From Candidatus Daviesbacteria bacterium RIFCSPHIGHO2_02_FULL_43_12 (lineage in GTDB: Bacteria; Patescibacteriota; Microgenomatia; Daviesbacterales; UBA10151), in assembly GCA_001776775.1 (NCBI GenBank), contig MFDD01000002.1, positions 37,746 through 101,745 of the forward strand: a stretch of 64,000 nt of DNA, given 5' to 3'. Positions 840 to 48,084 of this stretch are shown piece after piece; positions within the stretch are counted from its first letter, which is position 1; every line of letters starts with the position of its first letter. The notes under the pieces were generated by a model that searched no databases, was not told the DNA's origin, and saw only the letters and a program-made list of their open reading frames with translations. The position numbers and the translations under genes are program-made.

Positions 840-1478
840 ATGAGTACTTCCCTCTCGCTCGAAGAAACAATTCAGGCACTTGCCACAAAATATGCTGCTG
901 CTTTGAAACAAAAGATAGATGACAGAGTTGAACTTATGAAAGATGATGAAAATAGTCACTATCTGATTTATAGAGTCCTTGGCATCACAGACGAAGAAGG
1001 GGCCTTAATAGATATTTATCAAAACAAGGGTCGATTTTTATATAAATATGCAGGATCTTTTTTAGAAGAAGCTACTCTTTTATGCTTCAAGGAGAAGTTT
1101 CCAGGCTCTAAAGGAAAGACAAGAATTGAAAATAAAATAGGCCAGCGTCCAAAGACCTTTGAAATTGATTGTTTGGTTGAGAATGAAGCATTTGAAATTA
1201 AATGGAAAGATGCCACAACCGATGGAGACCACATTACTAAAGAACACACGAGATTGAGAAGTATCAAAGCTGCTGGTTATACCCCGATAAGGATTATGTT
1301 TTACTATCCCACAAGAGAGCAAGCCATGAGAATACAACAAACATTAAGAACCCTTTATTTAGGAGTAGATGGAAAATACTATTTTGGTGACGAGGCATGG
1401 GAGTATGTAAAAGAGAAAACTGGCGTGGATCTCAAAGGAATATTGACAAGAATAGCAGATAAAAATCAAAACGGGTAA
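840..1478 (+). CDS. Putative type II restriction endonuclease (PD-(D/E)xK-like)
   Basis: 212 aa, ATG at 840. Its stop lies 3 bp before the methyltransferase start. It has a D...E-x-K-like motif (FEIDCLVENEAFEIKWKD). The assignment rests on position in an RM pair, not on recognised homology. Confidence 0.45.
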   Translation: MSTSLSLEETIQALATKYAAALKQKIDDRVELMKDDENSHYLIYRVLGITDEEGALIDIYQNKGRFLYKYAGSFLEEATLLCFKEKFPGSKGKTRIENKIGQRPKTFEIDCLVENEAFEIKWKDATTDGDHITKEHTRLRSIKAAGYTPIRIMFYYPTREQAMRIQQTLRTLYLGVDGKYYFGDEAWEYVKEKTGVDLKGILTRIADKNQNG

Positions 1479-1480
1479 CT

Positions 1481-11539: not shown

Positions 11540-12901
11540 TTATAGCTTAAATCTTCGGTCAGCTAAAAAAGGATTGGGTTTTCTGGAAACCTTGGCACTT
11601 CCTAGTAAAACTGCCCTTTGTAAGGTAAACTCTCCGTAGCGGTCGTTAACTTTGTCTAAAGCTTGCAGGATGCGCTCTTCTTTTAATCGGTCTTCCAGGA
11701 AAGTCCTGTTCCGGGGGTAGGCAGACGTTAAGTTCGAAACCGAAACTCCGACCATCCGAATCTTGTCTTTATTCCAAAGTCGAAGAAAGGTTTGCCAAGC
11801 AGCTTGAAAGATCTCTAACCCGCTACTAGTTGGAGCGATAGTCAACTGCATCCCTCTTCCGCTAAAGCTACGGAGGGCGAGCCCGTCTCCTGAGGTAGAG
11901 CCATTAGAGTATTCCAAAGCTTCAGCGAAGGCATACCGAAACCACATACTCACTGTTTCGCCAACTAATTTCTTATGTCGCAGTTTACGAGAGATTAGCT
12001 CAGTGATCTTTAGAAAGATCTGTTTAACCTCTTCTGCGCTTTCGGTATCGTGACTTAAGGTATGTCGATGGCCGACTGATTTAACTTCCGGTTTCTGGTA
12101 AAAGGGTACTATCGGAGTAGGGTCTATCCCTCTGGCATAGTTAAATAAAACCTCACCGTAAGACTTGAAACTTACCATCAGCGTTTGTTTAGACGCTTGC
12201 CTCAAGCTTTTAAAATTGGTAACCCCCATATTCAGTAAACGCTTTTTGGTCTTGTAACCTATCCCGCAGATCTCGTCTAGCTCGACTCGATCCAGAATCC
12301 ATTGAGCGGCTTCTTGGTCGGCAATCATCACTAGTCCATCCGGCTTGTATAAAGATCCGGCAAGTTTGGCCATGAGTTTGTTGTAAGAAATGCCGATCGA
12401 ACAAGTGATCCATTCCCCGATCTCTGCTCGAATGCGAGACTTAATTTCAGTAGCAAGCTGCAACAGGTTATAGTTATCTTTTTCTGTACACTGTCCCCTG
12501 TGCCCTGTCAACTCCAAAAAGCATTCATCAATAGAAAAAACCTCCAGATAGGGAGAATAATCCTTGAGGATGTTTAAGAATTTTTGGGTCGTATCCAGAT
12601 ATTTGTCGCTATCGCCATTGACTAAAATTAGCTCGGGGCAAAGCTGGCGAGCCTCCCATATCTGCATCCCTGTCCTCACTCCAAACTTTTTTGCCTCCAC
12701 CGAGGCAGCCCCTAGAACTGTCCTGGTCGTACGATCCCCACCGGTTACTCCAATTGGTTTACCACGCAGCCGGGGGTTCGCCTGCTGCTCGACTGTGGCA
12801 AAGAAGGAATTAAAATCAATATGTACTATAATACGATTCACGATATATGATTCAGGATTCATGAATCTTGTATCTTGAATCATGAATCTATCCTTCCTCA
12901 A
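11540..12901 (-). CDS. dinB: DNA polymerase IV (Y-family, DinB)
   Basis: IVHIDFNSFFATVE and SIDECFLELTG motifs. The likely true start is the internal Met at 12862 (MNPESYIV...). Confidence 0.85.
   Translation of the reverse strand: MRKDRFMIQDTRFMNPESYIVNRIIVHIDFNSFFATVEQQANPRLRGKPIGVTGGDRTTRTVLGAASVEAKKFGVRTGMQIWEARQLCPELILVNGDSDKYLDTTQKFLNILKDYSPYLEVFSIDECFLELTGHRGQCTEKDNYNLLQLATEIKSRIRAEIGEWITCSIGISYNKLMAKLAGSLYKPDGLVMIADQEAAQWILDRVELDEICGIGYKTKKRLLNMGVTNFKSLRQASKQTLMVSFKSYGEVLFNYARGIDPTPIVPFYQKPEVKSVGHRHTLSHDTESAEEVKQIFLKITELISRKLRHKKLVGETVSMWFRYAFAEALEYSNGSTSGDGLALRSFSGRGMQLTIAPTSSGLEIFQAAWQTFLRLWNKDKIRMVGVSVSNLTSAYPRNRTFLEDRLKEERILQALDKVNDRYGEFTLQRAVLLGSAKVSRKPNPFLADRRFKL
12848..12890. 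promoter_or_regulatory. Cluster of palindromic GATTCATGAATC / TCTTGAATCATGAATC motifs at the dinB 5' end
   Basis: Perfect 12-bp palindrome at 12857-12868 centred on the candidate ATG, and a related 16-mer at 12873-12888. The same family recurs at 21570-21625. Confidence 0.3.
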
Positions 12902-13074
12902 CTGCTTCTAAGGTCCACTTCAAAGAAGTAGTATCAAATCCCAGTCTATAAAAATTACCCCCTGCTGACACCGAAAAGTGATAAAATAGCGAAGATCCAT
13001 TTCGGTTTTGATGACAAAGATTGATCTTGTCGATTTTGATTTGACGTTGATTCCAAAAAAAGAGGTAAGGTTCT

Positions 13075-14937
13075 ATGGTAGATTTCCTAAAAAAAACCCA
13101 AACATTAATAGGTTCACTCAGCTCTAACATAGCTAACCCTATTATTACCCGAATCAAACCCGAATGTCAATCGAGCAAAGGTTACAGGTTACAGGTTACA
13201 GGTTACAGATGGACCGCAGGTTTAATCTCACTTTATCTCCTACTGTTTACTGTACCCTGTACTCTGTACCCTGCTTTCGCTATTGTTGACCCCCGAGTAA
13301 GTCTGAATAATAAGTTTGGAATCCATATTCTTTCAGCCGTCCCTGACGAAGCCTCGGCTGCGGCAACTTTTGTCAACTCCAAGGGAGGAGATTGGGGGTA
13401 TGTTACTCTGTTAATTGAAAATCGTGACCGGGATAAGAATAGATGGCAACAAGTATTTGATGATCTACGCAGAAGACACTTAATTCCGCTAGTGCGGATA
13501 GCTACTCATCCCGAAGGGAGCGCCTGGAAAGTCCCGACTGACGGCGAGGAAAATATCTGGGCCGAATTTTTAAATAGCCTTAAATGGCCGGTTAAAAACC
13601 GCTATGTGATCATTTATAACGAACCCAACCAAGGCCAAGAATGGGGTGGACAAGTAGATAGCGCGTCCTACGCCAAGGTCTTGGATAAAACCATCGCTGC
13701 ATTAAAGGCCAAAAACGAAGATTTTTTCGTTTTAAACGCCGGATTTGATGCCTCTGCCCCAAATAAGGCACCCAGTTACGCAGATGAATTAATCTTTTTA
13801 CAGGACATGAATAAGGCTGTCCCGGGAATCTTTAATAAATTAGACGGATGGTCTTCTCATTCTTATCCTAATCCGGGGTTTGTTGGATCTCCGGAAGATA
13901 CCGGCAGAGGCACTACCTCTACCTGGGCTTGGGAAATGGAGGTGCTTTATGAGCTTGGGTTAAATAAATCTCTGCCTGTGTTTATCACCGAGACCGGATG
14001 GAAACACGCCGAAGGTATAAATTTTGATAAATCTTTGCCTGATGCTGATAAAGTCGCGCAGTATTATAAATATGCCTTTGAAAATACTTGGACCAGTAGC
14101 CAAATAGTGGCTATTACTCCTTTTATCCTTAATTACCAAGAAAACCCTTTTGACCATTTTTCGTTTAAGAAACTAACTGGTGAAAAACAAAACCTCAAAA
14201 TCCTGGGGCTGCAATATCCGGAATACTATTCTCCCTTTACTACCCTAGCTGATTTACCTAAATCTTCTGGCAGGCCAGTTCAGGTCAATAAAGCTGAGCT
14301 GGTCAAAGGGGCTTTGTTTACTTCGATTGTGGCTGGCGAAGAGTACACCATTCCCCTTACTTTCAAAAATACCGGGCAATCGACTTGGAACGAATACGAG
14401 CAGGTTAAGCTAGTAATCTTAAAGGGGGGTCAAGATTTAGGGATCCAGGATGTGGAGCTACCAAAAACAACTAGAGTAGAACCGGGCGGTGAATACACGT
14501 TTATCCTGCATGTTAAAAGTTTCAACCGGGGCAGCTTTAATGTTTCTTTGGCTCTGGTAGTGGGCAAAACACAATTTGAAGAACAAACTTTTGACTATAC
14601 TGTCGAAGTTAAACAACCGGTTATCTTGCAGGTAAAGGTTGGATTGAGGTGGGGCAAAGATGCGGCAGGGGTATATCTTTTTAAACTATCGACAGTCTTG
14701 GGTGATAGTTTTCAAAAAATACTACTCACCAGCTCTGGGGAATCCAGCCCAATCGATGCACGATTGCTACTGCCGGACTATAGTTTTGACTTTACCTTAA
14801 ACAAGCCCTACTACAAGACAAAGACCCTGCACCAAACAGTGCATTCCGGAGTTAATACCTTGGACTTTGGGATTATGGAACCAGACTTTTTTGCTGCCCT
14901 TTTCCACCCAGATCAATTTATCAAACTCTTGCCTTAG
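13075..14937 (+). CDS. Secreted glycoside hydrolase, GH5-like catalytic domain with C-terminal beta-rich domain
   Basis: VIIYNEPN (acid/base) and FITETGW (nucleophile) motifs typical of GH5. Hydrophobic signal-like segment after residue 45. Confidence 0.55.
   Translation: MVDFLKKTQTLIGSLSSNIANPIITRIKPECQSSKGYRLQVTGYRWTAGLISLYLLLFTVPCTLYPAFAIVDPRVSLNNKFGIHILSAVPDEASAAATFVNSKGGDWGYVTLLIENRDRDKNRWQQVFDDLRRRHLIPLVRIATHPEGSAWKVPTDGEENIWAEFLNSLKWPVKNRYVIIYNEPNQGQEWGGQVDSASYAKVLDKTIAALKAKNEDFFVLNAGFDASAPNKAPSYADELIFLQDMNKAVPGIFNKLDGWSSHSYPNPGFVGSPEDTGRGTTSTWAWEMEVLYELGLNKSLPVFITETGWKHAEGINFDKSLPDADKVAQYYKYAFENTWTSSQIVAITPFILNYQENPFDHFSFKKLTGEKQNLKILGLQYPEYYSPFTTLADLPKSSGRPVQVNKAELVKGALFTSIVAGEEYTIPLTFKNTGQSTWNEYEQVKLVILKGGQDLGIQDVELPKTTRVEPGGEYTFILHVKSFNRGSFNVSLALVVGKTQFEEQTFDYTVEVKQPVILQVKVGLRWGKDAAGVYLFKLSTVLGDSFQKILLTSSGESSPIDARLLLPDYSFDFTLNKPYYKTKTLHQTVHSGVNTLDFGIMEPDFFAALFHPDQFIKLLP
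13181..13208 (+). repeat. Heptanucleotide tandem repeat (GTTACAG)x4 inside the 5' coding region of the GH5-like gene
   Basis: Four perfect 7-bp units read directly; they encode GYRLQVTGYR. Confidence 0.8.
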
Positions 14938-14965
14938 CTTTTAATGAGTTAATAATGTTGGTAGA

Positions 14966-15565
14966 ATGGTTTATATGAGAAAGATTGTTGTTTTGACTTT
15001 TCTAACCCTTGACGGAGTTATGCAGGCTCCTGGCGGACCCAAAGAAGATACCAGCGGAGGCTTTAAATACGGCGGCTGGACTGTTCCATATTTTGATGAT
15101 TTTTCAGGTAAGATCATGGACAAGCAGATGAAGAGAAAATATGATCTGCTGCTTGGACGAAAAACCTACGATATCTTTGCCGGATACTGGCCAGAGCATA
15201 CCAGCGCCTGGCCTCAAGTCAATAAAATTACAAAATATGTTGTCTCCAAGACCCTAAAAAAAGCGACTTGGAAAAATACTGTCATAGTAAAAAGCATCGG
15301 AGCATTAAAAAAGCTAAAGGATTCTGAAGGTCCCGATCTTCAGGTTTATGGCAGTGGCAATCTCGCCCAGACGCTTTTGAAGCAGGATTTAGTTGATGAA
15401 CTTTGGCTAAAGATCTTCCCTATTACGCTGGGTGCTGGAAAAAAGTTATTTGATAAGGGGACTATTCCCGCCGCTTTCACTCTAACTGATTCCAAGACCT
15501 CACCAAGTGGGGTGATATTTGCCAATTTTAAGCGTGCAGGAGAAGTTGAAACAGGATCCTTTTAA
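14966..15565 (+). CDS. Dihydrofolate reductase family protein (RibD C-terminal domain)
   Basis: N-terminus IVVLTFLTLDGVMQAPGGP and overall length match PF01872-type proteins. Confidence 0.7.
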   Translation: MVYMRKIVVLTFLTLDGVMQAPGGPKEDTSGGFKYGGWTVPYFDDFSGKIMDKQMKRKYDLLLGRKTYDIFAGYWPEHTSAWPQVNKITKYVVSKTLKKATWKNTVIVKSIGALKKLKDSEGPDLQVYGSGNLAQTLLKQDLVDELWLKIFPITLGAGKKLFDKGTIPAAFTLTDSKTSPSGVIFANFKRAGEVETGSF

Positions 15566-15568
15566 GTT

Positions 15569-16126
15569 TTATGGTTCTCGGAGGACCCAATTGTGTGATA
15601 CATACGGTTCACTACATAGATTACGATTAAAACAGCATGGGCGTCTCATTCCTTTATTCAGCTTATCTAGCGCAACTTCTATATGTTTTTGGCGGGTCTT
15701 CGGTGTTTTGACAGCTCGTATCCAACGAATCCAATCCCAACGAGCCATGGCGGTAATATCGTACCATAAGCTTTGGGCTTTGGGGGATGTAGACAGCGCC
15801 TTTTTCAAATCTGCTGGTACTTCCGGTTCGATCCATTCTTTGGAAGGAACAAGTGAAACTTGTACATTATCTCCTGCTTTGGCATGAGCATCATCAAGTA
15901 ATTTTTTGTCCGGTCTAAACCAGTGGCTCGGTTTGTGGTCTGGTGAATACCTTCCATCCGGCTCGATCAAAGTTTTAAAAGCAACACCATTAATAGTACC
16001 AGCTACCATTAGCATGCCTCTTGACGGAAGTATTGCGGAGGCGCTCTCCGGTAATTTGAGAATGGTCCAGGAATTAATTTTAAACAGCTTAGTTTTGAAG
16101 TCGATTTTTGACATACATTCTCGCAC
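15569..16126 (-). CDS. YdeI/OmpD-associated family protein (DUF1905 + YdeI-like C-terminus)
   Basis: C-terminal WYDITAMARWDWIRWIRAVKTPKTRQKHIE resembles the YdeI/OmdA signature. Confidence 0.5.
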   Translation of the reverse strand: MRECMSKIDFKTKLFKINSWTILKLPESASAILPSRGMLMVAGTINGVAFKTLIEPDGRYSPDHKPSHWFRPDKKLLDDAHAKAGDNVQVSLVPSKEWIEPEVPADLKKALSTSPKAQSLWYDITAMARWDWIRWIRAVKTPKTRQKHIEVALDKLNKGMRRPCCFNRNLCSEPYVSHNWVLREP

Positions 16127-16214
16127 CGAATTTTAGGATCAGTCGAAGACTCTGTACTCGGTCGATCCGCTTTAGCGGATCGAAACCGTAAATTTCTTTT
16201 AGAAATTTACTCAG

Positions 16215-16287
16215 GGTGGCTGAGGGGAGTTGGACCCCCGACCTCCTGCGCCACAGGCAGGCGCTCTACCGTTGAGCTACAGCCACC
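16215..16287 (-). tRNA. tRNA-His (anticodon GTG) with encoded G-1
   Basis: Reverse complement folds as GGTGGCTG...; anticodon loop CTGTGGC. The extra 5' G pairs with discriminator C73, as is typical for tRNA-His. No CCA. Confidence 0.85.
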
Positions 16288-16433
16288 ATAAACTGGATAA
16301 TTTTATCATAGATCGCTCCCGGATGACAGCTAAAGACGGTTGGGCCTTTAGGGATCCAAGTAACGAGGGTTTATTGTTTTAAGCTCAATACCTCGATCGT
16401 CAGATCATGGATGGAGTTTTGGTGATTAAAGGG

Positions 16434-17426
16434 TTAGAGTACCGGATCCTCGGTTTTACTGATTAATCTTCTGGCGGTGTATTTATCATATCCATGGAAG
16501 AGTAAAGTTAAGGCAGTTCCGAAGAGTATAAAATGGGGCCAGGCCGCTTCTTGAAAGAAAAGTATCGAGACAGTCAGGAAGATAATAAAGACAAAACTTA
16601 CTAAACGAATCTGATATCCAAAAATTAGACATAGCCCAATGAGTGATTCAACCAGAAATGCTCCGAGCACTACAAATAGTGGATCAAAGGGGAAAAACTT
16701 TGTTAACTCAAATTTATTGATCGTCTCAATTGCTAGCTGACTATGTAAAAATTTAGCAAAGAAGGCTGAATATAACAGCGAACATCCGAGCGCTATCCTA
16801 ATGATTAAAAACTCCTTACCCTGCTCTTCTGGATTACTAGGTTTTAGCAAACCAAAATACGGACCATGTAAAAGTACGGCTAGCGCTCCGCCTAAATAAA
16901 CCATATAGGCTAGCGCAAAAGTAGGAGCAAAGATTAAAGAGCAGACAAAGAGTAGTATAAATAGAAGTATACCTAGCCGGACATATTTTCCCAGAATCAG
17001 AGTAACCGCGCAGCCTAAAAGCAAAGCCCTGGCTAACAGAGCAGAGCTGCCAAAGATCTTTTCTAGCGGTAACTCTGGACCAAACAGAGCATTATAGTAG
17101 ACACAGCTAAGTAAACTTCCCAGTAAGGTCAGCTGAATTAATACGGGAGCCCACCTTTTTACTCTATTTTCCAGTTTCACTAAGAAAAAGAATCTGGCTA
17201 ACCAGCCCGATAAAAAATGGGCTAACAAGCCAACTAGAGTAATTAAAAAAGCAGCCACCAAAAATTGATTATAGTTAGTAGTTAAGGCGTTAAAGGGATT
17301 GGGTGAGATCTGTTCTAAGCTTATCTTTACCTCTTGAGGGGCTAAGACATACACCTCATGTGCAGCTACAATCTGAGGGGAAAAAAAGATTAAGCAGACT
17401 AAAAAAAACAAAATTCCCCTTGGCAC
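16434..17426 (-). CDS. Polytopic membrane protein, unknown function
   Basis: Signal peptide plus about 8 TM helices. Confidence 0.5.
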   Translation of the reverse strand: MPRGILFFLVCLIFFSPQIVAAHEVYVLAPQEVKISLEQISPNPFNALTTNYNQFLVAAFLITLVGLLAHFLSGWLARFFFLVKLENRVKRWAPVLIQLTLLGSLLSCVYYNALFGPELPLEKIFGSSALLARALLLGCAVTLILGKYVRLGILLFILLFVCSLIFAPTFALAYMVYLGGALAVLLHGPYFGLLKPSNPEEQGKEFLIIRIALGCSLLYSAFFAKFLHSQLAIETINKFELTKFFPFDPLFVVLGAFLVESLIGLCLIFGYQIRLVSFVFIIFLTVSILFFQEAAWPHFILFGTALTLLFHGYDKYTARRLISKTEDPVL

Positions 17427-17449
17427 TTTCTTAGTGTATCATAAAGTTT

Positions 17450-18649
17450 ATGTTCAAAAAGAGTTTGCCTAAAAAAATTATAACCTCTTTAATCGGCCTA
17501 CTTATAGTGATGTTTTTAGTAGCGGTGGGAGTTATTGCATATAATACCCAACCCAAGTTACAAAAAAGAGTTAATCTATTTTTGGCAGGAGACAAAGATT
17601 ATCAAACGAAAATAGCTTCCCTCTTGGCTGAAGTAGAGACAGTCAAGAGTACTGACCAGATCAAACGAAACGACCAACTTGAAGCTGAGATTAAGAATAT
17701 CCAAATAACATACATGGTAGCCCTTTCCTTATATGAAAGAGTTCTAGATCTCAAAATTAAACAGCCTAAGAACCCGGATTTGGATACCTTATTTGCTGCA
17801 TCCTTAAAATATCTCTCGGATCGAAATTATACCTCTGGGTCAGCTACTTTAGCTAAATTAGATAAACAGATCCAAGAAATAGAGAGCAAACTTGCTCAAA
17901 CAACTACCCAAGGAACAACCCTGACCGTAATTGCAACTCCCAATAACTCTCCTCCGGGATCCGGATATTCCAGACAGTCAGTTCAGTCCGACTTAGGAAC
18001 GTTTGTAGTTGATTTAATCGCTGCCGATTTAAACAGTAATAAAGTCATTATCGATACTGCCTCTGATGGAGATTGTAGTAATGACTGTCCAGTGATGCCT
18101 CTAGCGAGCTATGCTTCCCGAAGCGGAGCCTGGGCCGGGATCAACGGTAGCTTCTTTTGCCCCTCGGAATATCCTAGCTGTGCAGGGAAGACAAATAGCT
18201 TTGACACGTTACTAATGAATAAAAATAAAACTTACTTTAATTCGGCCAATAATGTCTATAGCACTGTCCCGGTAGCAATTTTTTGGGCTGGATCGGCCCG
18301 CTTTGTCGGCCAAAGCCTGGAGTGGGGACGAGATGCCGGAGTAGACGCTGTCATCGCTAATTACCCGCTGCTTGTAGCTGGAGATAATATTGTTTACAGC
18401 GGATCAAGCAATGCTAAATTTAACGCTAAAGGTGCTCGGGGGTTTATTGCTTCCAAAGGTGGTACTGCGTATATTGGCTTTGTCTATAATGCGAACATGT
18501 CAGACTCAGCACATGTGTTAAAGACTTTGGGGATGAATAACGCCTTAAATCTTGATGAAGGTGGTTCAACAGCTCTTTGGGTTAACGGAGGCTATCGAAC
18601 TGGACCTGGAAGAAATATCCCAAATGCCGTGTTATTTGTTAAACGCTAA
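17450..18649 (+). CDS. Phosphodiester glycosidase family protein (NAGPA-like / DUF2233)
   Basis: GINGSFF ... NLDEGGSTALW motifs. N-terminal TM plus coiled coil. Confidence 0.65.
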   Translation: MFKKSLPKKIITSLIGLLIVMFLVAVGVIAYNTQPKLQKRVNLFLAGDKDYQTKIASLLAEVETVKSTDQIKRNDQLEAEIKNIQITYMVALSLYERVLDLKIKQPKNPDLDTLFAASLKYLSDRNYTSGSATLAKLDKQIQEIESKLAQTTTQGTTLTVIATPNNSPPGSGYSRQSVQSDLGTFVVDLIAADLNSNKVIIDTASDGDCSNDCPVMPLASYASRSGAWAGINGSFFCPSEYPSCAGKTNSFDTLLMNKNKTYFNSANNVYSTVPVAIFWAGSARFVGQSLEWGRDAGVDAVIANYPLLVAGDNIVYSGSSNAKFNAKGARGFIASKGGTAYIGFVYNANMSDSAHVLKTLGMNNALNLDEGGSTALWVNGGYRTGPGRNIPNAVLFVKR

Positions 18650-18660
18650 ATGTAAGGACT

Positions 18661-18750
18661 TTAAGGCATAGCTCCTTGCGCTACCAAGACAGCTGCCGTC
18701 AGAAAACCAAAGACCAATGTAACTACAGCCGCTAAGCTTCTTTTTAACAT
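18661..18750 (-). CDS. Candidate 29-aa hydrophobic micropeptide (MLKRSLAAVVTLVFGFLTAAVLVAQGAMP)
   Basis: ORF below the size cutoff of the supplied track. GGTGAG-like SD 6-10 nt upstream. Single predicted TM. Confidence 0.25.
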   Translation of the reverse strand: MLKRSLAAVVTLVFGFLTAAVLVAQGAMP

Positions 18751-18951
18751 ATCTCACCACCCTTCCCTAAATTCTGTAGATAAGTACCTACTGGCTAGTA
18801 TAGCTTTATATCTTCTGAATAGAATCAATATTTGGTAAGAATCATAAATGGAAAATTATTGGTTGTGGCCTATTGTAGAAATGATATATAATTCCTATAA
18901 GGACTCTTATTCCATATCATCCTTGGAGGGTCCTTTATTTTTGCAACAATC

Positions 18952-19401
18952 ATGACTAACTTCGAGAAAGTATCAATTAAAGCAACCAATTGGATCGGCA
19001 CGACAGGATCTATTGTTGTGCATAGTATCCTCTTTGTAGGAATATTCTCTTTACAACTACTTGGATTCCATTTTGATACTATCCTGCTGATTTTAACAAC
19101 TGCTGTATCTTTAGAGGCTATTTATTTGGCTATTTTTATTCAAATGACTGTTAATCGGAACACCCAAAGCTTAGAGGGCGTGGAAGACGACATCGAAGAG
19201 ATCCAAGAGGACTTTAAAGATTTAGAGGACGATGTTGAGGATATCTCTGAAGATATCGACAAGATACAAGAGAGCGATGAGGTAGAAGAAGCTGAGGAGT
19301 TGCTGACCAAACGAACTATTACCAACCTTGAGCAAGATTTGCAGAGACTAACCAAAGATATTGAATCGTTAAAGAAACAAAAAGCCCCCAAACTATTATG
19401 A
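18952..19401 (+). CDS. DUF1003 family membrane protein
   Basis: Two TM segments followed by an acidic coiled-coil tail. Pattern TTAVSLEAIYLAIFIQMTVNRN matches DUF1003. Confidence 0.55.
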   Translation: MTNFEKVSIKATNWIGTTGSIVVHSILFVGIFSLQLLGFHFDTILLILTTAVSLEAIYLAIFIQMTVNRNTQSLEGVEDDIEEIQEDFKDLEDDVEDISEDIDKIQESDEVEEAEELLTKRTITNLEQDLQRLTKDIESLKKQKAPKLL

Positions 19402-19428
19402 ACAAGGCCAATCTCCTAATTTTTAGGA

Positions 19429-20106
19429 ATGTTTAAACAAAAAAGAGTTATTATTTCCCTCACGGTAGCTGTGGCCCTTTTTGCTTTTTTTGTATCATTT
19501 TCAAAGCTGGTGAACAGAGATCTTTTTCCACAAATTGATTTTGATATTACCGTTAAACTCCAGGATAAACTTCCCCATCTTGTAGACTTTCCTTTTACTA
19601 TCCTCTCTCTTTTGGGCAACCCAGAGCCAACTGTTATTTTTTGGTTTTTGATGGTACTTTTCTTTGCTGTGAGGCGCCGTTGGATTGTATCGATCGGGTT
19701 GTTGGGGTTATTTCCGCTTTCGTTATTTATTGAAATATATGGAAAAACTTTTGTTTACCACCCTGCACCTCCCCAATTTATGTACCGCGGATTGTTCGAC
19801 TTTTCTCTTTCTAAATACTACGTCCATACAGAATTTTCGTATCCTTCTGGTCATGTAACCAGGATCAGCTTCTTTGTGGCTTTTTTTGTGGTTTATTTAC
19901 TGCATACTATCAAAAACCCTATCAAGAAGGTTGTTTCTGCTGGCATTCTCATGCTTTTTTTGATCTTGATGCTAGTCTCCCGAGTATATTTAGCAGAGCA
20001 TTGGACAACAGACGTTATTGGAGGACTACTACTAGGTTCTTCGTTTGGAATAGTGGCGGGTGTGCCTGCTCTATTTAGAAATTCAAGGACAGAAATTACT
20101 ACTTAA
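19429..20106 (+). CDS. PAP2-family phosphatase
   Basis: PAP2 motifs YPSGH and SRVYLAEHWTTD (SRx5Hx3D). Confidence 0.75.
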   Translation: MFKQKRVIISLTVAVALFAFFVSFSKLVNRDLFPQIDFDITVKLQDKLPHLVDFPFTILSLLGNPEPTVIFWFLMVLFFAVRRRWIVSIGLLGLFPLSLFIEIYGKTFVYHPAPPQFMYRGLFDFSLSKYYVHTEFSYPSGHVTRISFFVAFFVVYLLHTIKNPIKKVVSAGILMLFLILMLVSRVYLAEHWTTDVIGGLLLGSSFGIVAGVPALFRNSRTEITT

Positions 20107-20122
20107 CTTTTCGGTCTAATTA

Positions 20123-21565
20123 ATGCACAATAAACCTGTGAACTCCCTTAACTTGATTCTCTTTGGTATCACCAGTAACCTGGCTCAAAAATATTTACTG
20201 CAAGCCCTCTATGACCTGGCAGAAAAAGAGTTGCTTCCAGACGGTCTTAAAATATTGGGGATAGCCAGGACTCCCATGACCAAAAAAGAGATCCGAAACT
20301 TTTTAATTGCAGTACTGCAAGCAGAAAACAAACACCACCAACATGAGATAAAGCAGACAGTGGTTGATAATTTAGCTAAGAAACTTTTTTATATTGACGG
20401 ACATATAGAGGATCCAAACCTTTATGTAAAAATTAAACAGTTTATTGGAAACGAAAATCCAGCTGGTGATATTATCTATTATTTAGCAACTTACCCTGAG
20501 CTTTATGAAACGATTTTTGAAAACCTCAAAAGCGAGCAACTAAACAAGCAAAAAAATGGTTGGGTTAGGCTGATGATCGAGAAGCCAATTGGTAATAATC
20601 TTGACTCTGCAAGAAAAATAAATAAATCTTTACTTAAATATTTTCAAGAGAGTCAAATATACCGACTAGATCATTATTTAGGAAAAGAGACCCTGCAAAA
20701 TATTTTGACCTTTAGATTTGGAAATAATATATTTGAGAATTTAGTCAACAAAGACTTTGTTGACCACATCCAAATCTCTTTACTCGAAGATTTTGGGGTA
20801 GGTAAACGGGGTGGTTATTATGATTTAGTCGGAGCATTAAAGGATGTGGGGCAAAATCATCTTCTACAAATGCTCGCCTTAGCAACTATGGATAAACCCC
20901 AGGAATTTAGCAATAAAGAGATTACCCATAATCGGGCAAAGGTTTTGAAAGATTTAGTTCCCTCGCCTAACCAAATTATCTATGGCCAATATGCAGGATA
21001 TAGATCTGAAAAAAATATCCCTCCGGATTCTCGTACAGACACATTTTTTGCTTTTAAAACCGAGCTTCGAAATAAGAGATTTAAGGGGGTGCCTATTTAT
21101 ATACGGTCTGGCAAAAAACTTAAACAAACGGTAACAGAAGTTTCGATTGTATTTAAAAAGCCCGCTAACTCTCTTTTCTCACCTATCGGGACAAGCATTC
21201 CGAATGTCTTAATTTACAGGGTTCAACCAAACGAGGGGATTGTTCTAAAAATCAATACCAAGAAACCGGGGCAAACTCAGAAATTAGAAGAAACGTATAT
21301 GCAATTTTGCTACCGGGATTACGAAACTGCCTTACCCGATCCTTATGAAAAATTAATTTTGGACGTGATGAAAGGAGACCAGACTTTTTTTAATGATGCC
21401 AAGGAGATAGAAGCATCCTGGAAGTTCATAGATCCTTTAGTTGGTGTGAGCAAAGATCTCTATATCTATGAACCTGGATCGTACGGACCAAAAGAGGCAG
21501 ATGACTTGATCAAAGCTGATGGTCGAGAGTGGTTAGAGCCGTCCAACTTATTCTGTAAGATATAA
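20123..21565 (+). CDS. zwf: Glucose-6-phosphate 1-dehydrogenase
   Basis: N-terminal Rossmann ILFGITSNLA and active-site RLDHYLGKE motif. Full-length. Confidence 0.9.
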   Translation: MHNKPVNSLNLILFGITSNLAQKYLLQALYDLAEKELLPDGLKILGIARTPMTKKEIRNFLIAVLQAENKHHQHEIKQTVVDNLAKKLFYIDGHIEDPNLYVKIKQFIGNENPAGDIIYYLATYPELYETIFENLKSEQLNKQKNGWVRLMIEKPIGNNLDSARKINKSLLKYFQESQIYRLDHYLGKETLQNILTFRFGNNIFENLVNKDFVDHIQISLLEDFGVGKRGGYYDLVGALKDVGQNHLLQMLALATMDKPQEFSNKEITHNRAKVLKDLVPSPNQIIYGQYAGYRSEKNIPPDSRTDTFFAFKTELRNKRFKGVPIYIRSGKKLKQTVTEVSIVFKKPANSLFSPIGTSIPNVLIYRVQPNEGIVLKINTKKPGQTQKLEETYMQFCYRDYETALPDPYEKLILDVMKGDQTFFNDAKEIEASWKFIDPLVGVSKDLYIYEPGSYGPKEADDLIKADGREWLEPSNLFCKI

Positions 21566-21569
21566 AATT

Positions 21570-21625
21570 GGATTCATGATATAGGATTTATGATTCGTAA
21601 ATCATATTTCTTGAATCGTGAATCA
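21570..21625. repeat. Palindromic element (GGATTCATGA / TGATTCGTAAATCA / TCTTGAATCGTGAATCA) between the convergent zwf and gnd
   Basis: Shares a 15/16-nt core with the dinB 5' element. It fills the 60-bp convergent intergenic region exactly. Confidence 0.35.
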
Positions 21626-22558
21626 TTATTTCTTAACGGAGTGGTGGCCAAATTGTCCACGAAGAGCAGAAACTGCCTTATTTCTAAATCCATTAGGAGA
21701 ATCTTCTCTGTCGTTGCCAGAACTCTCCCTGATTCTAATGGCATCCTCAATGACGGGAGTATCTATCTCGAGCTCCTTAGCAGCCTCGACTGTCCAGTCG
21801 GCCTCTCCTAGAATCCTCTGCTCTCCCCCACCTCCGGAGCCAATTTTCGAAGAAATGTTATCCAGATTTGGATCATCTTGAAAGGAGTTTTGCATCCATT
21901 CTACGAGTCTGGAGGTAATCACCGATTGGTGATTATAGATATCCATAACTTTTGCCAGATCAAAACCAAATGAACTATTTTTCAGGACAGCGACACCTTC
22001 AGCCAGAGCTTCCATCATTCCGTATTCAATACCGTTATGTACCATCTTGGCAAAATGCCCCGCTCCAACTGGGCCTAAGTGTTTAAATGCTTGGTCTGCG
22101 GCCAAAAGTTTAGCTAGAGGCTCAAAGCGTAGATAGTCCTCGTCCGAACCGCCAATCATCAAACAAGCTCCCGTTCGGGCACCCCCCGGACCTCCGGAAG
22201 TGCCACAATCCATAAAGTGGATCCGTGAAGACTTTAGATCCTGACTGCGACGAATAGTATCTTTGTAAAAAGAGTTAGCACAATCGACAATCAGATCATC
22301 TGCCGATAAATGGGGTCTTAGCTCGTTAATAAACTCGTCTGTTACTTCTCCAGCCGGAAGCATCAGTAGGATCATCCGAGGAGGCTCTAGTTTACTAACC
22401 AGATCTTTAATTGTTTCCGCCGGGATGGCTCCCGCTCCGGCAACTTCCTCGACTGGTTCGGGAGAGCGGTTCCAGGCCACAACTTCTACTCCCTGTTCAA
22501 GAGCATTTAAAACCATGGCTTTACCCATCTTGCCCAGGCCAATGAAACCAATTTTCAT
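21626..22558 (-). CDS. gnd: 6-phosphogluconate dehydrogenase (decarboxylating), short form
   Basis: MKIGFIGLGKMGKAM NAD(P)-binding N-terminus and 6PGD-like C-domain. About 300-aa YqeC-type. Confidence 0.85.
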   Translation of the reverse strand: MKIGFIGLGKMGKAMVLNALEQGVEVVAWNRSPEPVEEVAGAGAIPAETIKDLVSKLEPPRMILLMLPAGEVTDEFINELRPHLSADDLIVDCANSFYKDTIRRSQDLKSSRIHFMDCGTSGGPGGARTGACLMIGGSDEDYLRFEPLAKLLAADQAFKHLGPVGAGHFAKMVHNGIEYGMMEALAEGVAVLKNSSFGFDLAKVMDIYNHQSVITSRLVEWMQNSFQDDPNLDNISSKIGSGGGGEQRILGEADWTVEAAKELEIDTPVIEDAIRIRESSGNDREDSPNGFRNKAVSALRGQFGHHSVKK

Positions 22559-22612
22559 TAGATCTAATATTAGAACAACTAGTAACTAGTGGCAAGTAAC
22601 AAGTTAAGAGGT

Positions 22613-23341
22613 TTAGAGTCTGATGACACGGGAGCTGGCGGTAGTTTGCTTGAGCCAATCATTAAAAGCTGTAGTAGTTTTTTGTCTTTTAAGAGTATCC
22701 GCAATACTCTGTTTTAGCTTAGCGCTTTCCGAGCTTTGGGGATCAGTAATCTGAGGAAGCTGCTCCTTGTTGGTTTCCATATAAGCGGCGACTTCGTCAT
22801 CCGAAATTGTGATATCCTTGCCAAACATTTTCTCGATTAGGATTTGGTATTTAAGCTGCTTTTGAAAGTCGTCGATAGTCATACCTTGAAATTGGAGTAA
22901 CTGAGATAACTTGTCCATACCACCCTGTTCGGCGGCGATTTTATCTAACTCTATTTTGACATCAGCATCGCTAGCGTAAACATTTCTTTTACGGGCTTCG
23001 CTTATAATCAGAGTTTGACCAATCAAACGATCTGTGGCATCCTTACCGTAACGCGCTTCTAAATCACGATCAAGTTGAATGCGGGTGATCGGAATGCGGT
23101 CAACCCAGGCAATCACTAAAAACCTATATCCAAAAAAAAGAGCAAGTCCGACACCAGCTATTCCTACCAAAACAAACAGCTTCTGTTTAGTCGAATAACT
23201 GTTGAATAAATTTATAGTTTTATCTACTAGGCTTGGGCTAGTAAGAGGAGAGTTTTTTCTTTTGGACTTAGCTCGAGCAGTTTGGGTAACTGCTAACTTT
23301 TTTCCTATTTTAGATGTTTTTGAACCAACTTTTCGTGCCAT
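22613..23341 (-). CDS. SurA N-terminal-domain chaperone-like protein (membrane anchored)
   Basis: Basic N-tail, one TM, then a SurA_N-like helical domain. No obvious PPIase domain. Confidence 0.5.
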   Translation of the reverse strand: MARKVGSKTSKIGKKLAVTQTARAKSKRKNSPLTSPSLVDKTINLFNSYSTKQKLFVLVGIAGVGLALFFGYRFLVIAWVDRIPITRIQLDRDLEARYGKDATDRLIGQTLIISEARKRNVYASDADVKIELDKIAAEQGGMDKLSQLLQFQGMTIDDFQKQLKYQILIEKMFGKDITISDDEVAAYMETNKEQLPQITDPQSSESAKLKQSIADTLKRQKTTTAFNDWLKQTTASSRVIRL

Positions 23342-23458
23342 AGTATATTTACTTAGGATAACTTTCTGATCTTATCATCTAGTACAGTCTGGGGCAAGGG
23401 GTTAGTTTAGAGTATATGGTATATAGTATATGGTAAGTTGTGGATTTAGTACAAAATT

Positions 23459-27104: not shown

Positions 27105-28214
27105 TTAAAAAGAGACGAGTGAGGAAGCAGGAGAGAGACTAAGCTTACTGTTAACGCCCCTCTTAAACTTCAAAAACTCTAAGAGAGTCCTAATTTGGTC
27201 CACAGCCTGAGCTTTTCTTTTAGCATCAAATTCACCATTACCGGTCTCTAAATCCTTTTGCCCCTGACCGTGTAGATAGGGGATATCGACCGATGTCACC
27301 TTCAAGCCTGCCCAAAGAGCTGAGGCTACTGGTAACTGAAGGCCATTTGACCAACGCTCTGGATCAATGTTTCGATCCTTAGGGTCATTGATGTCAGGAG
27401 TATAAACCCATCGAGCCAGAAAATGCTCAGCTGCACTTCGCGAAAACGATCTTTGGCCATTAAAAAAGTCCATTTTACGAGGGGTATATATTGGCAAGTC
27501 ATCTGAACCCCGACCAAGCAAACCTTCCTTTATAAGAATCGACTCCATAGCTTTTCCAGCCCTAGTCTCAAAAACCATTTGAACTGTGGGTAATGAGGCC
27601 ATACCTATAGCATTACGATTTGCTATAACTACATCATATGGAGGGATCATTCGTCCGTCTGGAGCCGGGTAGCTATTAAGTATTGGAGCAGCCATGACTA
27701 AGTGTCCATTAAATTCTACTGTTTCCGGTTTATTGGCTTCGATCCAAGTAACCACTTGGACATCTCGATTACCTAAGAGTACCTTATAAGCAACTCTACG
27801 ATCGGCGGCCATGGTACTACGAACCCCAGGCTCTGGGTGAACTATGGTGGCTCCAGTATCTGTAAGCATATGCTGAAATTCCACTGAGCTACCGCCATCA
27901 GTTACCACTACCGGATGCCCCATTTTAACAGCAGTGCTGAAAAGTTGCTCTGCAGCAAGTCCTCGATGATTATCGATAACGCCTGTACCTTTCGACAGAT
28001 CAAATCCCGGAAAAAACGTAATGGAAGCAACTCCCACACTACGAGGATCAATTCGATCCGTTAGGCCAGCAATGCGGTCGGCTTGACGAACCGTGAAACC
28101 TCTGTCGATAATACCTTGCTTTAAGTCCTGATCTGCAGTCATCAGGAGGAATATACATCTGTCTTCCCTGATTGTCAATCTGATTGTTTGGACTGGCGGA
28201 GGTAGGACCAACAA
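27105..28214 (-). CDS. Hypothetical enzyme-like protein
   Basis: 369 aa and GC-richer than its neighbours. The ORF overlaps the yibE/F 3' end by 40 bp, so the true start is probably the internal Met near 28142. Confidence 0.4.
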   Translation of the reverse strand: MLVLPPPVQTIRLTIREDRCIFLLMTADQDLKQGIIDRGFTVRQADRIAGLTDRIDPRSVGVASITFFPGFDLSKGTGVIDNHRGLAAEQLFSTAVKMGHPVVVTDGGSSVEFQHMLTDTGATIVHPEPGVRSTMAADRRVAYKVLLGNRDVQVVTWIEANKPETVEFNGHLVMAAPILNSYPAPDGRMIPPYDVVIANRNAIGMASLPTVQMVFETRAGKAMESILIKEGLLGRGSDDLPIYTPRKMDFFNGQRSFSRSAAEHFLARWVYTPDINDPKDRNIDPERWSNGLQLPVASALWAGLKVTSVDIPYLHGQGQKDLETGNGEFDAKRKAQAVDQIRTLLEFLKFKRGVNSKLSLSPASSLVSF

Positions 28215-48054: not shown

Positions 48055-48084
48055 GATAGGCGAATAAAGCCCGAAATTGGTATA

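What the first reader, a model, noticed from the sequence alone, without database searches (positions are those of the whole stretch)
12848..21625. Second repeated palindromic element (GATTCATGAATC family) at the dinB 5' end and in the zwf/gnd convergent intergenic region
At the dinB start region, the sequence TGATTCAGGATTCATGAATCTTGTATCTTGAATCATGAATC contains a perfect 12-bp palindrome centred on a candidate start codon. At 21570-21625, the sequence GGATTCATGATATAGGATTTATGATTCGTAAATCATATTTCTTGAATCGTGAATCA shares a TCTTGAATC[A/G]TGAATC core (15/16 identical) and further GATTC/GAATC half-sites. The first copy is placed like an operator or translational control site on an SOS polymerase gene. 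The second copy sits between two convergent stop codons, where only termination or a mobile/dispersed repeat makes sense. This is a different motif from the uvrA/lexA element, so there are either two regulators or one element that is a regulator site and one that is a MITE-like repeat.
Basis: seen in the sequence. Interest (0 to 1): 0.5.

Follow-up and report, generated by a model that had tools for sequence, protein, structure and literature searches.

The report
Small palindromic repeat built from heptamers
The two look-alike sites are copies of a 56-base hairpin-forming repeat, made of eight 7-base units, that has been inserted at several unrelated places in this uncultivated groundwater bacterium, including inside genes; they are not binding sites for a regulator.

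Summary
Each site (12834-12889 and 21570-21625) is a 56-bp element: four tandem GATTCAN heptamers followed directly by four inverted ones. The two copies align without gaps (44/56 identical).

The genome is Candidatus Daviesbacteria RIFCSPHIGHO2_01_FULL_44_29 (CPR). A metagenome scan found two more full copies in it. One lies between murD and a murE-like gene. The other lies in frame inside pgi.

Relatives at 62-72% protein identity lack the element at all three sites tested:
- Their zwf/gnd stop-to-stop spacers are 3-16 bp, against 60 bp here.
- Their dinB starts directly at N-R-I-I.
- Their Pgi lacks the extra 16 residues.

Three of the four copies share identical departures from the ideal palindrome (P = 1.5e-4 to 0.016), which points to copying from one master.

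I read this as a miniature, non-autonomous palindromic repeat, REP/RPE-like in behaviour and STRR-like in construction. It is not an SOS operator. At zwf/gnd it probably acts incidentally as a two-way RNA 3' hairpin. At dinB it supplies the start codon.

The same architecture, with GATTCAN and other units, occurs in Acidobacteriota and Planctomycetota contigs. How it spreads is unknown.

The parts
12834..12889 (-). Copy S1 of the 56-bp heptamer palindrome: 4 x GATTCAN-type units followed by 4 inverted units. The family orientation runs on the minus strand, the same direction as dinB.
   Evidence: Sequence; 7-bp register of matches; gapless alignment with the other copies; the second-longest inverted repeat in the window (I2).
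12856..12867 (.). Perfect 12-bp palindrome GATTCATGAATC, the junction of the two arms of S1. It contains the minus-strand ATG at 12862-12860.
   Evidence: translation; start of the NCBI 440-aa protein P0001.
12881..12883 (-). The most probable present dinB start codon (ATG). It lies inside the element, 7 nt downstream of the GGA core of the Shine-Dalgarno sequence.
   Evidence: Gene call of 447 aa; sequence read directly.
12890..12899 (-). Shine-Dalgarno sequence GAGGAAGGAT of dinB, immediately 5' of the element. It matches GGAGGAAGG at the same place in relative L007.
   Evidence: Sequences.
12839..12841 (-). GTG directly before the conserved N-R-I-I-V-H-I-D, at the position of the start codon in relatives. 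It is probably the ancestral start, now Val-15 of the 447-aa protein. It also forms part of the last heptamer (GTGAATC).
   Evidence: Translation; the relatives' dinB starts, M-S-N-R-I-I-L-H and V-R-T-I-L-H. That it is the ancestral start is an inference.
11540..12883 (-). dinB (DNA polymerase IV, IMS family). Its first 14-17 codons are encoded by the element.
   Evidence: Pfam PF00817 and PF11799; homologues.
21570..21625 (-). Copy S2 of the element. It fills the spacer between the stop codons of zwf (21563-21565) and the gnd-like gene (21626-21628).
   Evidence: Sequence; alignment; RNA folds of -26 kcal/mol (z -5.5) on the + strand and -15 kcal/mol (z -2.8) on the - strand.
20123..21565 (+). 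zwf (glucose-6-phosphate dehydrogenase), ending 4 nt before S2.
   Evidence: Pfam G6PD_N and G6PD_C; homologues.
21626..22558 (-). Short 6-phosphogluconate-dehydrogenase-type gene. Its stop codon abuts S2.
   Evidence: Pfam NAD_binding_2 and 6PGD.

Best explanation
Both sites are copies of a small, non-coding, non-autonomous palindromic repeat, 54-56 bp long. It is built from four GATTCAN heptamers and their four inverted counterparts.

The element has been inserted, or copied in, at several unrelated positions of this Candidatus Daviesbacteria genome. It survives where it does no harm: in minimal intergenic spacers, at a gene's 5' end, and in frame in a surface loop of an enzyme. It is not an operator.

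Shown:
- At least four full copies exist in one genome.
- The element is absent from the corresponding positions in relatives at three of the four sites.
- Three copies share irregularities.
- Every copy can form a hairpin.

Inferred:
- Copies derive from a common master by copy-and-paste.
- Copying is most plausibly template switching or gene conversion primed on short native GAATC-like sequences. In dinB and pgi the last heptamer coincides with native codons, and there are no target-site duplications and no transposase nearby.
- The heptamer build reflects the same slippage-prone 7-bp process that produces heptanucleotide arrays in other bacteria.

Consequences, all inferred:
- At zwf/gnd the transcript of either gene ends in a 22-26-bp hairpin followed by a U-rich tract. 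This can act as a two-way terminator or 3'-end protector that relatives do without.
- At dinB about 49 nt were placed between the Shine-Dalgarno sequence and the old GTG start. Translation now starts at an element-borne ATG and adds about 14 residues. The 5' end of the mRNA can fold, which may dampen initiation.
For: Architecture and similarity of the two window copies.

Two more copies in the same genome:
- The metagenome scan gave L082:5020-5075 and L058:652-707. Proteins on these contigs carry the same organism name (Candidatus Daviesbacteria), and the L058 protein the same locus-tag series (A2631_) as the window's DinB.
- The four copies align without gaps, 39-49 of 56 identical.

Insertion status:
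- zwf/gnd spacers in three relatives are 7, 16 and 3 bp with no heptamers, against 60 bp here.
- The relatives' dinB begins at the residue where the element ends.
- Pgi carries an extra segment, QIQDTRSKIHESKIMNH. It is absent from solved PGIs and from the 39 closest homologues, most of which have a loop 16 residues shorter.

Common descent: the copies share identical departures from the ideal palindrome. S1/S2 share 3 (P = 1.5e-4), S1/S3 share 2 (P = 1.7e-3) and S2/S3 share 2 (P = 0.016). There are almost none in the opposite orientation.

Hairpin potential: RNA folding of the two window copies gives z-scores of -1.7 to -5.5; DNA folding of all four copies gives -3.0 to -4.0.

No known RNA family overlaps either site.

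Precedents exist for heptanucleotide elements both within and between genes, and in opposed pairs: PMC2700814, PMC4692102 and PMC4679880. In-frame palindromic elements are reviewed in PMC10969869.
Against: - Only about 117 kb of the genome could be examined, so copy number is known only as at least 4.
- Two of the four copies were found by a pattern that forced the 4 + 4 length.
- No intermediate relatives (80-95% identity) were available. 'Absent in relatives' therefore spans a long evolutionary distance, and no empty site is shown in a close strain. All contigs of this species are 100% identical.
- There are no target-site duplications, no terminal signature and no candidate mobilising enzyme. 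The mode of spread is therefore conjecture.
- S4 shares no derived changes with the others.
- The same genome, and distant phyla, carry inverted heptamer arrays with other unit sequences. This favours local generation over transposition for the class as a whole.
- Covariation does not exceed shuffles, so there is no evidence that the hairpin is selected.
Confidence: 0.65

Rival explanations
1. Independent local microsatellite growth. Each site is a heptanucleotide simple-sequence array of the STRR type. It arose in place by polymerase slippage on a native GAATC-like seed and became palindromic by intrastrand template switching. No sequence was copied between loci.
For: - Period-7 arrays are strongly over-represented in this window: 13 period-7, 4 period-14 and 3 period-21 rows, against 1.5, 0.2 and 0 in shuffles.
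- Other inverted heptamer arrays with different units occur in the same window, at 13179-13273 and 29218-29316.
- Contigs from other phyla carry them in nearly every spacer, with a different unit in each.
- In dinB and pgi the last heptamer overlaps native codons.
- Heptamers are the commonest long SSR class in bacteria, and polymerase slippage has been proposed as the cause (Mrazek 2007, as cited).
Against: - Three copies share the same irregular heptamers at the same positions and in the same polarity (P = 1.5e-4 to 0.016).
- All four copies have exactly 4 + 4 units. This is partly forced by the search pattern for S3 and S4, but not for S1 and S2.
- The loci shown, from four different samples (out of 22 contigs read), show no copy-number variation.
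Confidence: 0.17
2. A selected RNA structural element. The hairpins are kept because they terminate transcription or protect mRNA 3' ends between closely packed genes, as REP sequences do in enterobacterial operons. The sequence matters only as a stem.
For: - S2 folds to -26 kcal/mol (z -5.5) and is followed by UUAUUUCUU on the + strand. On the - strand it gives -15 kcal/mol (z -2.8) followed by CAAUUUUAUA.
- S3 lies directly after the murD stop codon.
- In other phyla, arrays of differing sequence but identical architecture sit in successive spacers of one gene cluster.
Against: - Relatives manage with 3-16-bp spacers and no hairpin.
- Two of the four copies are inside coding sequence (S1 and S4).
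- The consensus terminator scan does not call the sites, and terminator-like sites are not enriched (8 found, 10.3 expected).
- There is no covariation above shuffles.
- In the metagenome set the arrays lie in tandem, divergent and convergent spacers alike: 34, 12 and 5 with crude ORF calls.
Confidence: 0.12
3. Protein-binding control sites. A regulator, or a methylation-dependent factor acting on the GANTC sites in each heptamer, binds GATTCAN arrays and controls dinB and other adjacent genes.
For: - In the two window copies, 7 of the 12 differences fall at the ninth of 56 positions that are seventh-base positions, so the hexamer cores are better conserved (direct reading of the alignment).
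- One copy overlaps the dinB start.
- Every perfect unit contains a GANTC site.
- Similar Geobacter elements were annotated as putative global regulator sites (PMC2700814).
Against: - The positions are heterogeneous: a coding loop of pgi, a convergent stop-stop spacer, a stop-start spacer and a 5' end.
- None of the three sites tested is conserved in relatives.
- The dinB upstream region lacks the element shared by the lexA and uvrA promoters.
- GANTC shows only mild depletion overall: 222 found against 256 +/- 14 expected.
Confidence: 0.05

Closest known systems
Rickettsia palindromic elements (RPE)
   Same: Short palindromic, non-autonomous repeats found both between genes and inserted in frame inside unrelated housekeeping genes, where they add a peptide segment (PMC10969869). 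Here the genes are dinB and pgi.
   Different: RPEs are about 100-150 bp, are not built from tandem heptamers, have no sequence similarity to this element, and are confined to Rickettsia. This element is 54-56 bp and comes from a CPR bacterium.
REP / REPIN elements (repetitive extragenic palindromes with RAYT transposases)
   Same: Small imperfect palindromes dispersed in many copies, often filling spacers after genes. They have proposed effects on termination and mRNA stability (PMC3733652 abstract; PMC3116915).
   Different: There is no GTAG or CGTC terminal tag. Two of the four copies are intragenic. No RAYT gene was seen in the 117 kb examined. The stem is a tandem array of 7-bp units.
Cyanobacterial STRR and other heptanucleotide repeat arrays: Xanthomonas GGGAATC, Nostoc GGGGA(T/C)T, Beggiatoaceae TAACTGA
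   Same: Tandem 7-bp units, mostly intergenic and close to gene ends, sometimes as inverted pairs between convergent genes. Their function is unresolved (PMC4692102; PMC4679880). The Xanthomonas unit even shares the GAATC core.
   Different: Those arrays vary in copy number and are described as direct repeats, with inverted pairs as the exception. Here the unit of repetition between loci is the whole 4 + 4 palindrome, including its internal irregularities, and copies lie inside genes.
Geobacter metallireducens multicopy heptanucleotide elements
   Same: One family of 49 elements has four tandem heptanucleotides and is found within genes as well as between them. Other classes consist of tandem heptamer or octamer sites, mostly in pairs on opposite strands (PMC2700814). 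This is the nearest published description of the architecture.
   Different: The unit sequences differ (GGACCGG, MTYCTGA) and the host is GC-rich. The paired sites are separated by variable distances rather than abutting. They were interpreted as regulator sites or regulatory RNA without test.
MITEs
   Same: Short, non-coding, multi-copy, with inverted-repeat structure, and able to create in-frame fusions.
   Different: No target-site duplication was found at any of the four copies, and no related autonomous insertion sequence. At 54-56 bp the element is below the usual MITE size.

Membership tests
MITE | Terminal inverted repeats | tested here: met
   The whole element is an imperfect palindrome, with 79% of cells paired over 26 pairs in four copies. 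This is met only trivially, because the element has no internal non-repeat part.
MITE | Target-site duplication flanking each copy | tested here: not met
   The flanks of S1-S4 were read directly. The flanks are GGAT|..|TATT, ATAA|..|AATT, AACT|..|ACAG and TATC|..|GATC. None shows a direct repeat.
MITE | A related autonomous IS or transposase in the genome | tested here: inconclusive
   No transposase Pfam hit was found among ORFs of the window or among precomputed annotations of the flanking loci. Only about 117 kb of the genome was seen.
REP / REPIN | Conserved GTAG or CGTC tetranucleotide at one end | tested here: not met
   The ends are (A/T)GATTCA and TGAATC(N) in all four copies.
REP / REPIN | Extragenic location | tested here: not met
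   S1 is translated as the DinB N-terminus. S4 lies in frame inside pgi.
REP / REPIN | Associated RAYT (IS200/IS605-like Y1 transposase) gene | not testable with these tools
   The whole genome could not be scanned. The single genome-contig scan did not return this species.
Rickettsia palindromic elements | In-frame insertion into unrelated protein-coding genes | tested here: met
   Pgi has an insertion of about 16 residues that is absent from the solved structures and from the 39 closest homologues. DinB has an N-terminal extension absent from relatives.
Rickettsia palindromic elements | Sequence family membership and a size of about 100-150 bp | tested here: not met
   The element is 54-56 bp and consists of heptamers. 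RPE sequence was not compared directly; no Rfam family matches.
Heptanucleotide SSR / STRR-type arrays | Tandem repetition of a 7-bp unit | tested here: met
   TRF gives period-7, period-14 and period-21 rows at both sites. Pattern hits fall in 7-bp register.
Heptanucleotide SSR / STRR-type arrays | Copy-number variability between strains or loci (slippage behaviour) | tested here: inconclusive
   All contigs of this species from different samples are 100% identical. The four copies all have 4 + 4 units, but the search pattern fixed the length for two of them. Arrays in other organisms range from 2 to 21 units per arm.
Intrinsic (rho-independent) terminator | Stable stem-loop followed by a U tract at the 3' end of a gene | tested here: inconclusive
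   S2 has a strong hairpin with U-rich tails on both strands. Against this, the stem is AT-rich, the consensus scan does not call it, and S1 and S4 are not at 3' ends.
SOS (LexA) operator | A motif shared with other SOS promoters of the same genome (lexA, uvrA) and conserved at dinB in relatives | tested here: not met
   The lexA and uvrA upstream regions share a different, GC-rich element. The dinB upstream region shares nothing of 9 nt or more with them. The relatives' dinB 5' ends lack heptamers.

The most novel reading that the evidence does not exclude
Inverted arrays of tandem heptamers are the product of one widespread but undescribed process. This could be a property of replication or repair, or an enzyme acting in trans, that builds or copies hairpins in 7-bp steps. 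It would operate in at least Patescibacteria, Acidobacteriota and Planctomycetota, and probably also produces the cyanobacterial STRRs. On this reading, the Daviesbacteria 56-bp family shows that finished hairpins can then be copied to new sites, including into reading frames, by microhomology-primed template switching on GAATC-like seeds.
Probability: 0.15. Interest if true: 0.75.

Novelty: new variant of a known kind. Interest (0 to 1): 0.42.

Why it matters
For annotation: the finding removes a false lead. There is no second SOS-type operator at dinB. It also corrects the gene models. The dinB start codon and the first 14-17 residues are repeat-derived, and Pgi carries a repeat-derived loop.

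More broadly: heptanucleotide arrays have been reported since 1990 in cyanobacteria, and later in Xanthomonas, Geobacter and Beggiatoaceae, without an accepted origin or function. Three things seen here bear on that question:
- The same construction occurs in a reduced CPR genome.
- A whole 4 + 4 palindrome behaves as a copied unit and is tolerated in frame inside housekeeping enzymes.
- The identical GATTCAN architecture occurs in contigs assigned to Acidobacteriota and Planctomycetota.

Together these suggest a general way of generating hairpins and spreading them. That idea could be tested on cultivable hosts.

Tried and rejected
1. Genome-contig scan with DinB, meant to get orthologous loci and species names.
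2. Near-identical contigs L001-L004, as a test of conservation or variability. All are 100% identical to the window, so they are uninformative.
3. Viral contigs scanned with the symmetric pattern. The single hit was a chance match with no internal periodicity.
4. Covariation test of the palindrome on the four copies. It did not exceed shuffles, so there is no evidence for or against a selected structure.
5. Consensus terminator and promoter scan of 12000-23000. Neither site was called, and there was no enrichment.
6. Rfam at gathering threshold. Only four tRNAs were found.
7. The GANTC idea: each unit is a CcrM/HinfI-type site. GANTC is only mildly depleted in the window, and other heptamer arrays lack the site, so I dropped it.
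8. Search for a transposase or RAYT among window ORFs. None was found.
9. Search for a shared LexA-type box between the dinB, lexA, uvrA and uvrB upstream regions. None involved dinB.
10. Extending the genome sample by three look-ups (about 27 kb of new sequence). No further full copy was found, only a direct GATTCAN x 4 array inside a trhO-like gene.
11. Elhai et al. 2008, on small dispersed repeats in Nostoc, could not be retrieved. What I recall of it was not used as evidence.
12. My first strict period detector was too stringent, and I replaced it with TRF.


Full report
**1. Observation**

- GATTCATGAATC is a perfect 12-bp palindrome at 12856-12867. A one-mismatch copy lies at 12877-12888 (2 hits against 0.25 expected).
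- The 16-mer TCTTGAATCRTGAATC occurs exactly at 12873-12888 and 21609-21624. With up to 3 mismatches it gives 10 hits against 1.45 expected, and none of 100 shuffles reaches that.
- Nine of those ten hits lie in the two sites and step by exactly 7 bp.

Each site is a block of eight heptamers:
- Site 1 (12834-12889): C GATTCAC GATATAT GATTCAG GATTCA | TGAATCT TGTATCT TGAATCA TGAATCT
- Site 2 (21570-21625): G GATTCAT GATATAG GATTTAT GATTCG | TAAATCA TATTTCT TGAATCG TGAATCA

So each is four direct units followed directly by four inverted units, 56 bp in all. The two sites align without gaps (44/56 identical). TRF reports period 7, 14 or 21 at both.

**2. Context and organism**

- 11540-12883(-) is an IMS-family polymerase (DinB).
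- 20123-21565(+) is G6PD.
- 21626-22558(-) is a short 6PGD-type dehydrogenase (Pfam).
- The best protein matches are named Candidatus Daviesbacteria bacterium RIFCSPHIGHO2_01_FULL_44_29, locus tags A2631_. This is a CPR/Microgenomates genome from a metagenome.
- The next relatives are only 62-72% identical in DinB, Zwf and Pgi. All contigs of the species itself are 100% identical to the window. Fine-scale conservation therefore cannot be assessed.

**3. Both sites are insertions relative to the nearest relatives**

*zwf/gnd.* The convergent pair is conserved in three Daviesbacteria relatives (L129, L130, L131). Their stop-to-stop spacers are 7, 16 and 3 bp and contain no heptamers. Here the spacer is 60 bp, of which 56 are the element. 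It begins 4 nt after the zwf stop and abuts the gnd stop.

*dinB.* In L006 and L007 the gene starts M-S-N-R-I-I-L-H-I-D-F and V-R-T-I-L-H-I-D-F, directly after a Shine-Dalgarno sequence. In the window:
- The homologous Shine-Dalgarno sequence (GAGGAAGGAT, 12899-12890 on the minus strand) is followed by the element.
- Only then comes GTG-N-R-I-I-V-H-I-D-F.
- The distance from the Shine-Dalgarno sequence to the I-I-V-H codons is 58 nt, against 9 nt in L007. That is 49 nt extra, or seven heptamers.
- The ATG at 12883-12881, 7 nt after the GGA core, is in frame and is the start chosen by one gene caller (447 aa). NCBI chose the ATG at 12862-12860 (440 aa).
- Either way the start codon and 14-17 N-terminal residues are repeat-derived.
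- The GTG at 12841-12839 sits where relatives have their start. It is at the same time part of the last heptamer (GTGAATC).

**4. More copies in the same genome**

I scanned metagenome contigs for GATTCANGAT-N34-ATCNTGAATC. Two of these contigs belong to this very organism, because their proteins are the Daviesbacteria AtpA (OGE30590) and A2631_05950, and Pgi is named for the same assembly.

*S3 (L082:5020-5075).* It starts on the last base of the murD stop codon and ends 10 nt before the ATG of a murE-like ligase gene.

*S4 (L058:652-707).* It lies in frame inside pgi.
- It encodes QIQDTRSKIHESKIMNHES.
- Alignment to solved PGIs shows a gap of about 16 residues exactly there.
- Among the 39 closest homologues, none has this segment and most have the short loop.

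The four copies align gaplessly with 39-49 of 56 identical positions.

I extended the sampled genome to 117 kb: the window plus about 8.5 kb on each side, 22.9 kb around pgi, and 13.3 kb around murD. This gave no further full copy. It gave only a direct GATTCAN x 4 array inside a trhO-like gene. The unbiased density is thus 2 per 81 kb. A genome-wide number cannot be given.

**5. Copies or independent growths?**

Relative to an ideal GATTCAN palindrome, the copies share identical deviations:
- S1 and S2 share three (T>A in the third left unit; G>A and A>T in the third right unit). P = 1.5e-4 by simulation.
- S1 and S3 share two (P = 1.7e-3).
- S2 and S3 share two (P = 0.016).
- In the opposite relative orientation almost none are shared.
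- S4 shares none.

The deviations are not palindromic partners, so the element has a polarity. In that polarity S1 runs with dinB, S2 with gnd and S3 with murD. This argues that at least S1-S3 descend from one master sequence rather than from independent slippage.

There are no target-site duplications (flanks read). No transposase or RAYT is visible in the ORFs examined.

In dinB and pgi the last unit overlaps native codons:
- In dinB, GTG-AAT-C of start-Asn-Arg.
- In pgi, GAA-TCA of the Glu-Ser found also in the closest homologue.

This suggests that copying is primed on short GAATC-like homology. That step is inference.

**6. Structure and likely effects**

- As RNA, S2 folds to -26 kcal/mol on the + strand (z = -5.5) and is followed by UUAUUUCUU. 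On the - strand it gives -15 kcal/mol (z = -2.8) followed by CAAUUUUAUA.
- S1 gives -19.7 (z = -3.5) on the + strand and -19.5 (z = -1.7) on the - strand.
- As DNA, all four copies fold better than shuffles (z = -3.0 to -4.0).
- In the palindromic register 79% of cells pair. The outer and innermost units are perfect and the second and third units are degenerate. Covariation does not exceed shuffles.
- The consensus terminator scan does not call the sites, and terminator-like sites are not enriched in the region.

A two-way terminator or 3'-end hairpin at zwf/gnd is therefore plausible, but it would be incidental, because relatives lack any room for one.

No Rfam family matches.

**7. The operator idea**

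- The true LexA gene is at 48113-48766.
- Its upstream region and that of uvrA share a different, GC-rich palindromic element of about 60 bp.
- The dinB upstream region (12884-13074) shares nothing with them.
- One copy lies inside a coding loop, one lies between two stop codons, and the element is absent from relatives. A regulator-site function is therefore unlikely.
- GANTC sites, one per perfect unit, are only mildly depleted in the window (222 against 256 +/- 14).

**8. The wider phenomenon**

*In the window.* It is rich in 7-bp arrays: 13 period-7, 4 period-14 and 3 period-21 rows among 32, against 1.5, 0.2 and 0 in shuffles. The five loci from relatives (about 95 kb) have five such rows in all.

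Two further inverted heptamer arrays with other units lie in the window:
- GGTTACA x 4 ... CTGTACC x 3 at 13179-13273.
- TAGTTCG x 4 ... CGAACTA x 4 at 29218-29316, the longest inverted repeat in the window.

Both are inside N-terminal coding regions, on either side of a transmembrane segment.

*In the metagenome hits.*
- At least 81 loci carry genuine GATTCAN inverted arrays, with 2-21 units per arm and central spacers of 0-49 nt.
- The contigs range from 34 to 68% G+C.
- Cluster names place three of them in Pyrinomonadaceae, Terriglobia and Planctomycetota.
- These contigs carry 294 period-7 rows in 461 kb. Many are inverted pairs with unrelated units, sometimes one per spacer along a gene cluster.
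- With crude ORF calls the arrays fill short spacers of all orientations: 34 tandem, 12 divergent, 5 convergent and 10 inside ORFs.

So the class as a whole looks locally generated, while the Daviesbacteria 56-bp family looks copied. Both processes may operate.

**9. Comparison with what is known**

*Heptanucleotide arrays.*
- They are the commonest long simple repeats in bacteria, and polymerase slippage has been proposed as the cause (Mrazek et al. 2007, as summarised in PMC4692102 and PMC4679880).
- Xanthomonas GGGAATC and Nostoc GGGGA(T/C)T arrays are intergenic and sometimes form inverted pairs between convergent genes.
- TAACTGA repeats occur in Beggiatoaceae, Cyanobacteria and Bacteroidetes.
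- Geobacter metallireducens has 49 elements of four tandem heptanucleotides, within and between genes. It also has paired tandem-repeat sites on opposite strands.

*In-frame palindromic insertions* are the hallmark of Rickettsia palindromic elements.

*Membership.*
- The element fails the defining tests for MITEs (no target-site duplication).
- It fails those for REPs (no GTAG/CGTC tag, and it is not extragenic).
- It is not an RPE by size or build.
- It is best described as a new variant that combines the heptanucleotide-array construction with the behaviour of a dispersed, frame-tolerant palindromic repeat.

I found no paper that describes such repeats in CPR bacteria or Acidobacteria. The library searched is incomplete.

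**10. Verdict**

The regulator reading is not supported, and the dispersed-repeat reading is supported for both sites. The mechanism of spread and any function remain inferred. Interest is moderate. The finding is a tidy correction for annotation and a useful data point on an old, unresolved class of repeats, but it is not a new kind of system on present evidence.

Noticed in passing
window 37828-37895 and 48000-48065: The regions upstream of uvrA (34694-37744, -) and of the true lexA (48113-48766, +) share a GC-rich palindromic element of about 60 bp: CCTTCAAGGCCCGCCTGCCATGCAGG..CGGGCAG.TGGAAGGCTAAATAT. It is absent from the dinB upstream region.
   Followed up: partly
window 13179-13273: An inverted pair of heptamer arrays, GGTTACA x 4.3 and CTGTACC x 3.4 with a spacer of about 41 bp, lies inside the N-terminal coding region of ORF 13075-14937, on either side of the transmembrane segment. 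Orthologues in two relatives start 43 residues later and lack the first array.
   Followed up: partly
window 29218-29316: The longest inverted repeat in the window: TAGTTCG x 4.4 and CGAACTA x 4 with a 36-40-bp spacer. It lies inside the first 36 codons of the YibE/F-family gene (28175-29326, -), again bracketing a hydrophobic segment.
   Followed up: no
window 51446-51476 and 23412-23435: Direct heptamer arrays without an inverted partner. CAAGAAT-like x 4.4 spans the ends of two convergent genes (50766-51458 + and 51473-52975 -). GTATATG x 3.4 lies in a divergent spacer.
   Followed up: no
window 840-2680: An ApaLI-like restriction endonuclease gene, followed by an N6/N4 DNA methyltransferase gene: a type II restriction-modification pair.
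   Followed up: no
window 37925-38437: The ORF divergent from uvrA has no Pfam match at E <= 1e-5. The LexA-family protein (LexA_DNA_bind + Peptidase_S24) is encoded elsewhere, at 48113-48766.
   Followed up: partly
L058:10079-10108 (same genome): A direct array GATTCAT GATTCAG GATTCAG GATTTAG lies inside a trhO-like (UPF0176/rhodanese) gene. It is translated as RFMIQDSGF, close to the dinB peptide RFMIQDTRF.
   Followed up: partly
L132:10402-10419 (pgi of the same genome) and L011:462-492: The unit GGTTACA of the window's array at 13179 recurs as 2.6 units inside pgi, encoding QVTGY. It also recurs as AGGTTAC x 4.4, with an inverted partner, in an unrelated contig of 55% G+C. The same heptamer units therefore turn up again in different loci and organisms.
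   Followed up: no
L085:600-13240: A metagenome contig with five tandem genes of about 800 aa; one is in a cluster named ABC-transporter permease, the others are unannotated. Most of the spacers between them hold an inverted heptamer array with a different unit (GATTGTG/CACAATC, AATTCAA/TTTTTAA, GATTCAN twice); one spacer has only a direct array and one has none.
   Followed up: partly
Pgi homologues P0275, P0276, P0278 and others: The Pgi loop that holds the element here is an insertion hot spot in other lineages as well. A family of inserts of about 25 residues (..PxExGIxxxDGxxWIPxRVGD..) occurs there. One long insert contains a tandem TQGQASLI duplication.
   Followed up: no
L131:12395-12435: In a Daviesbacteria relative, the 39-bp divergent spacer between gnd and a ROK-family gene is filled by ATTGTAA x 5.9. 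Heptamer arrays therefore occur in the lineage at low density.
   Followed up: no
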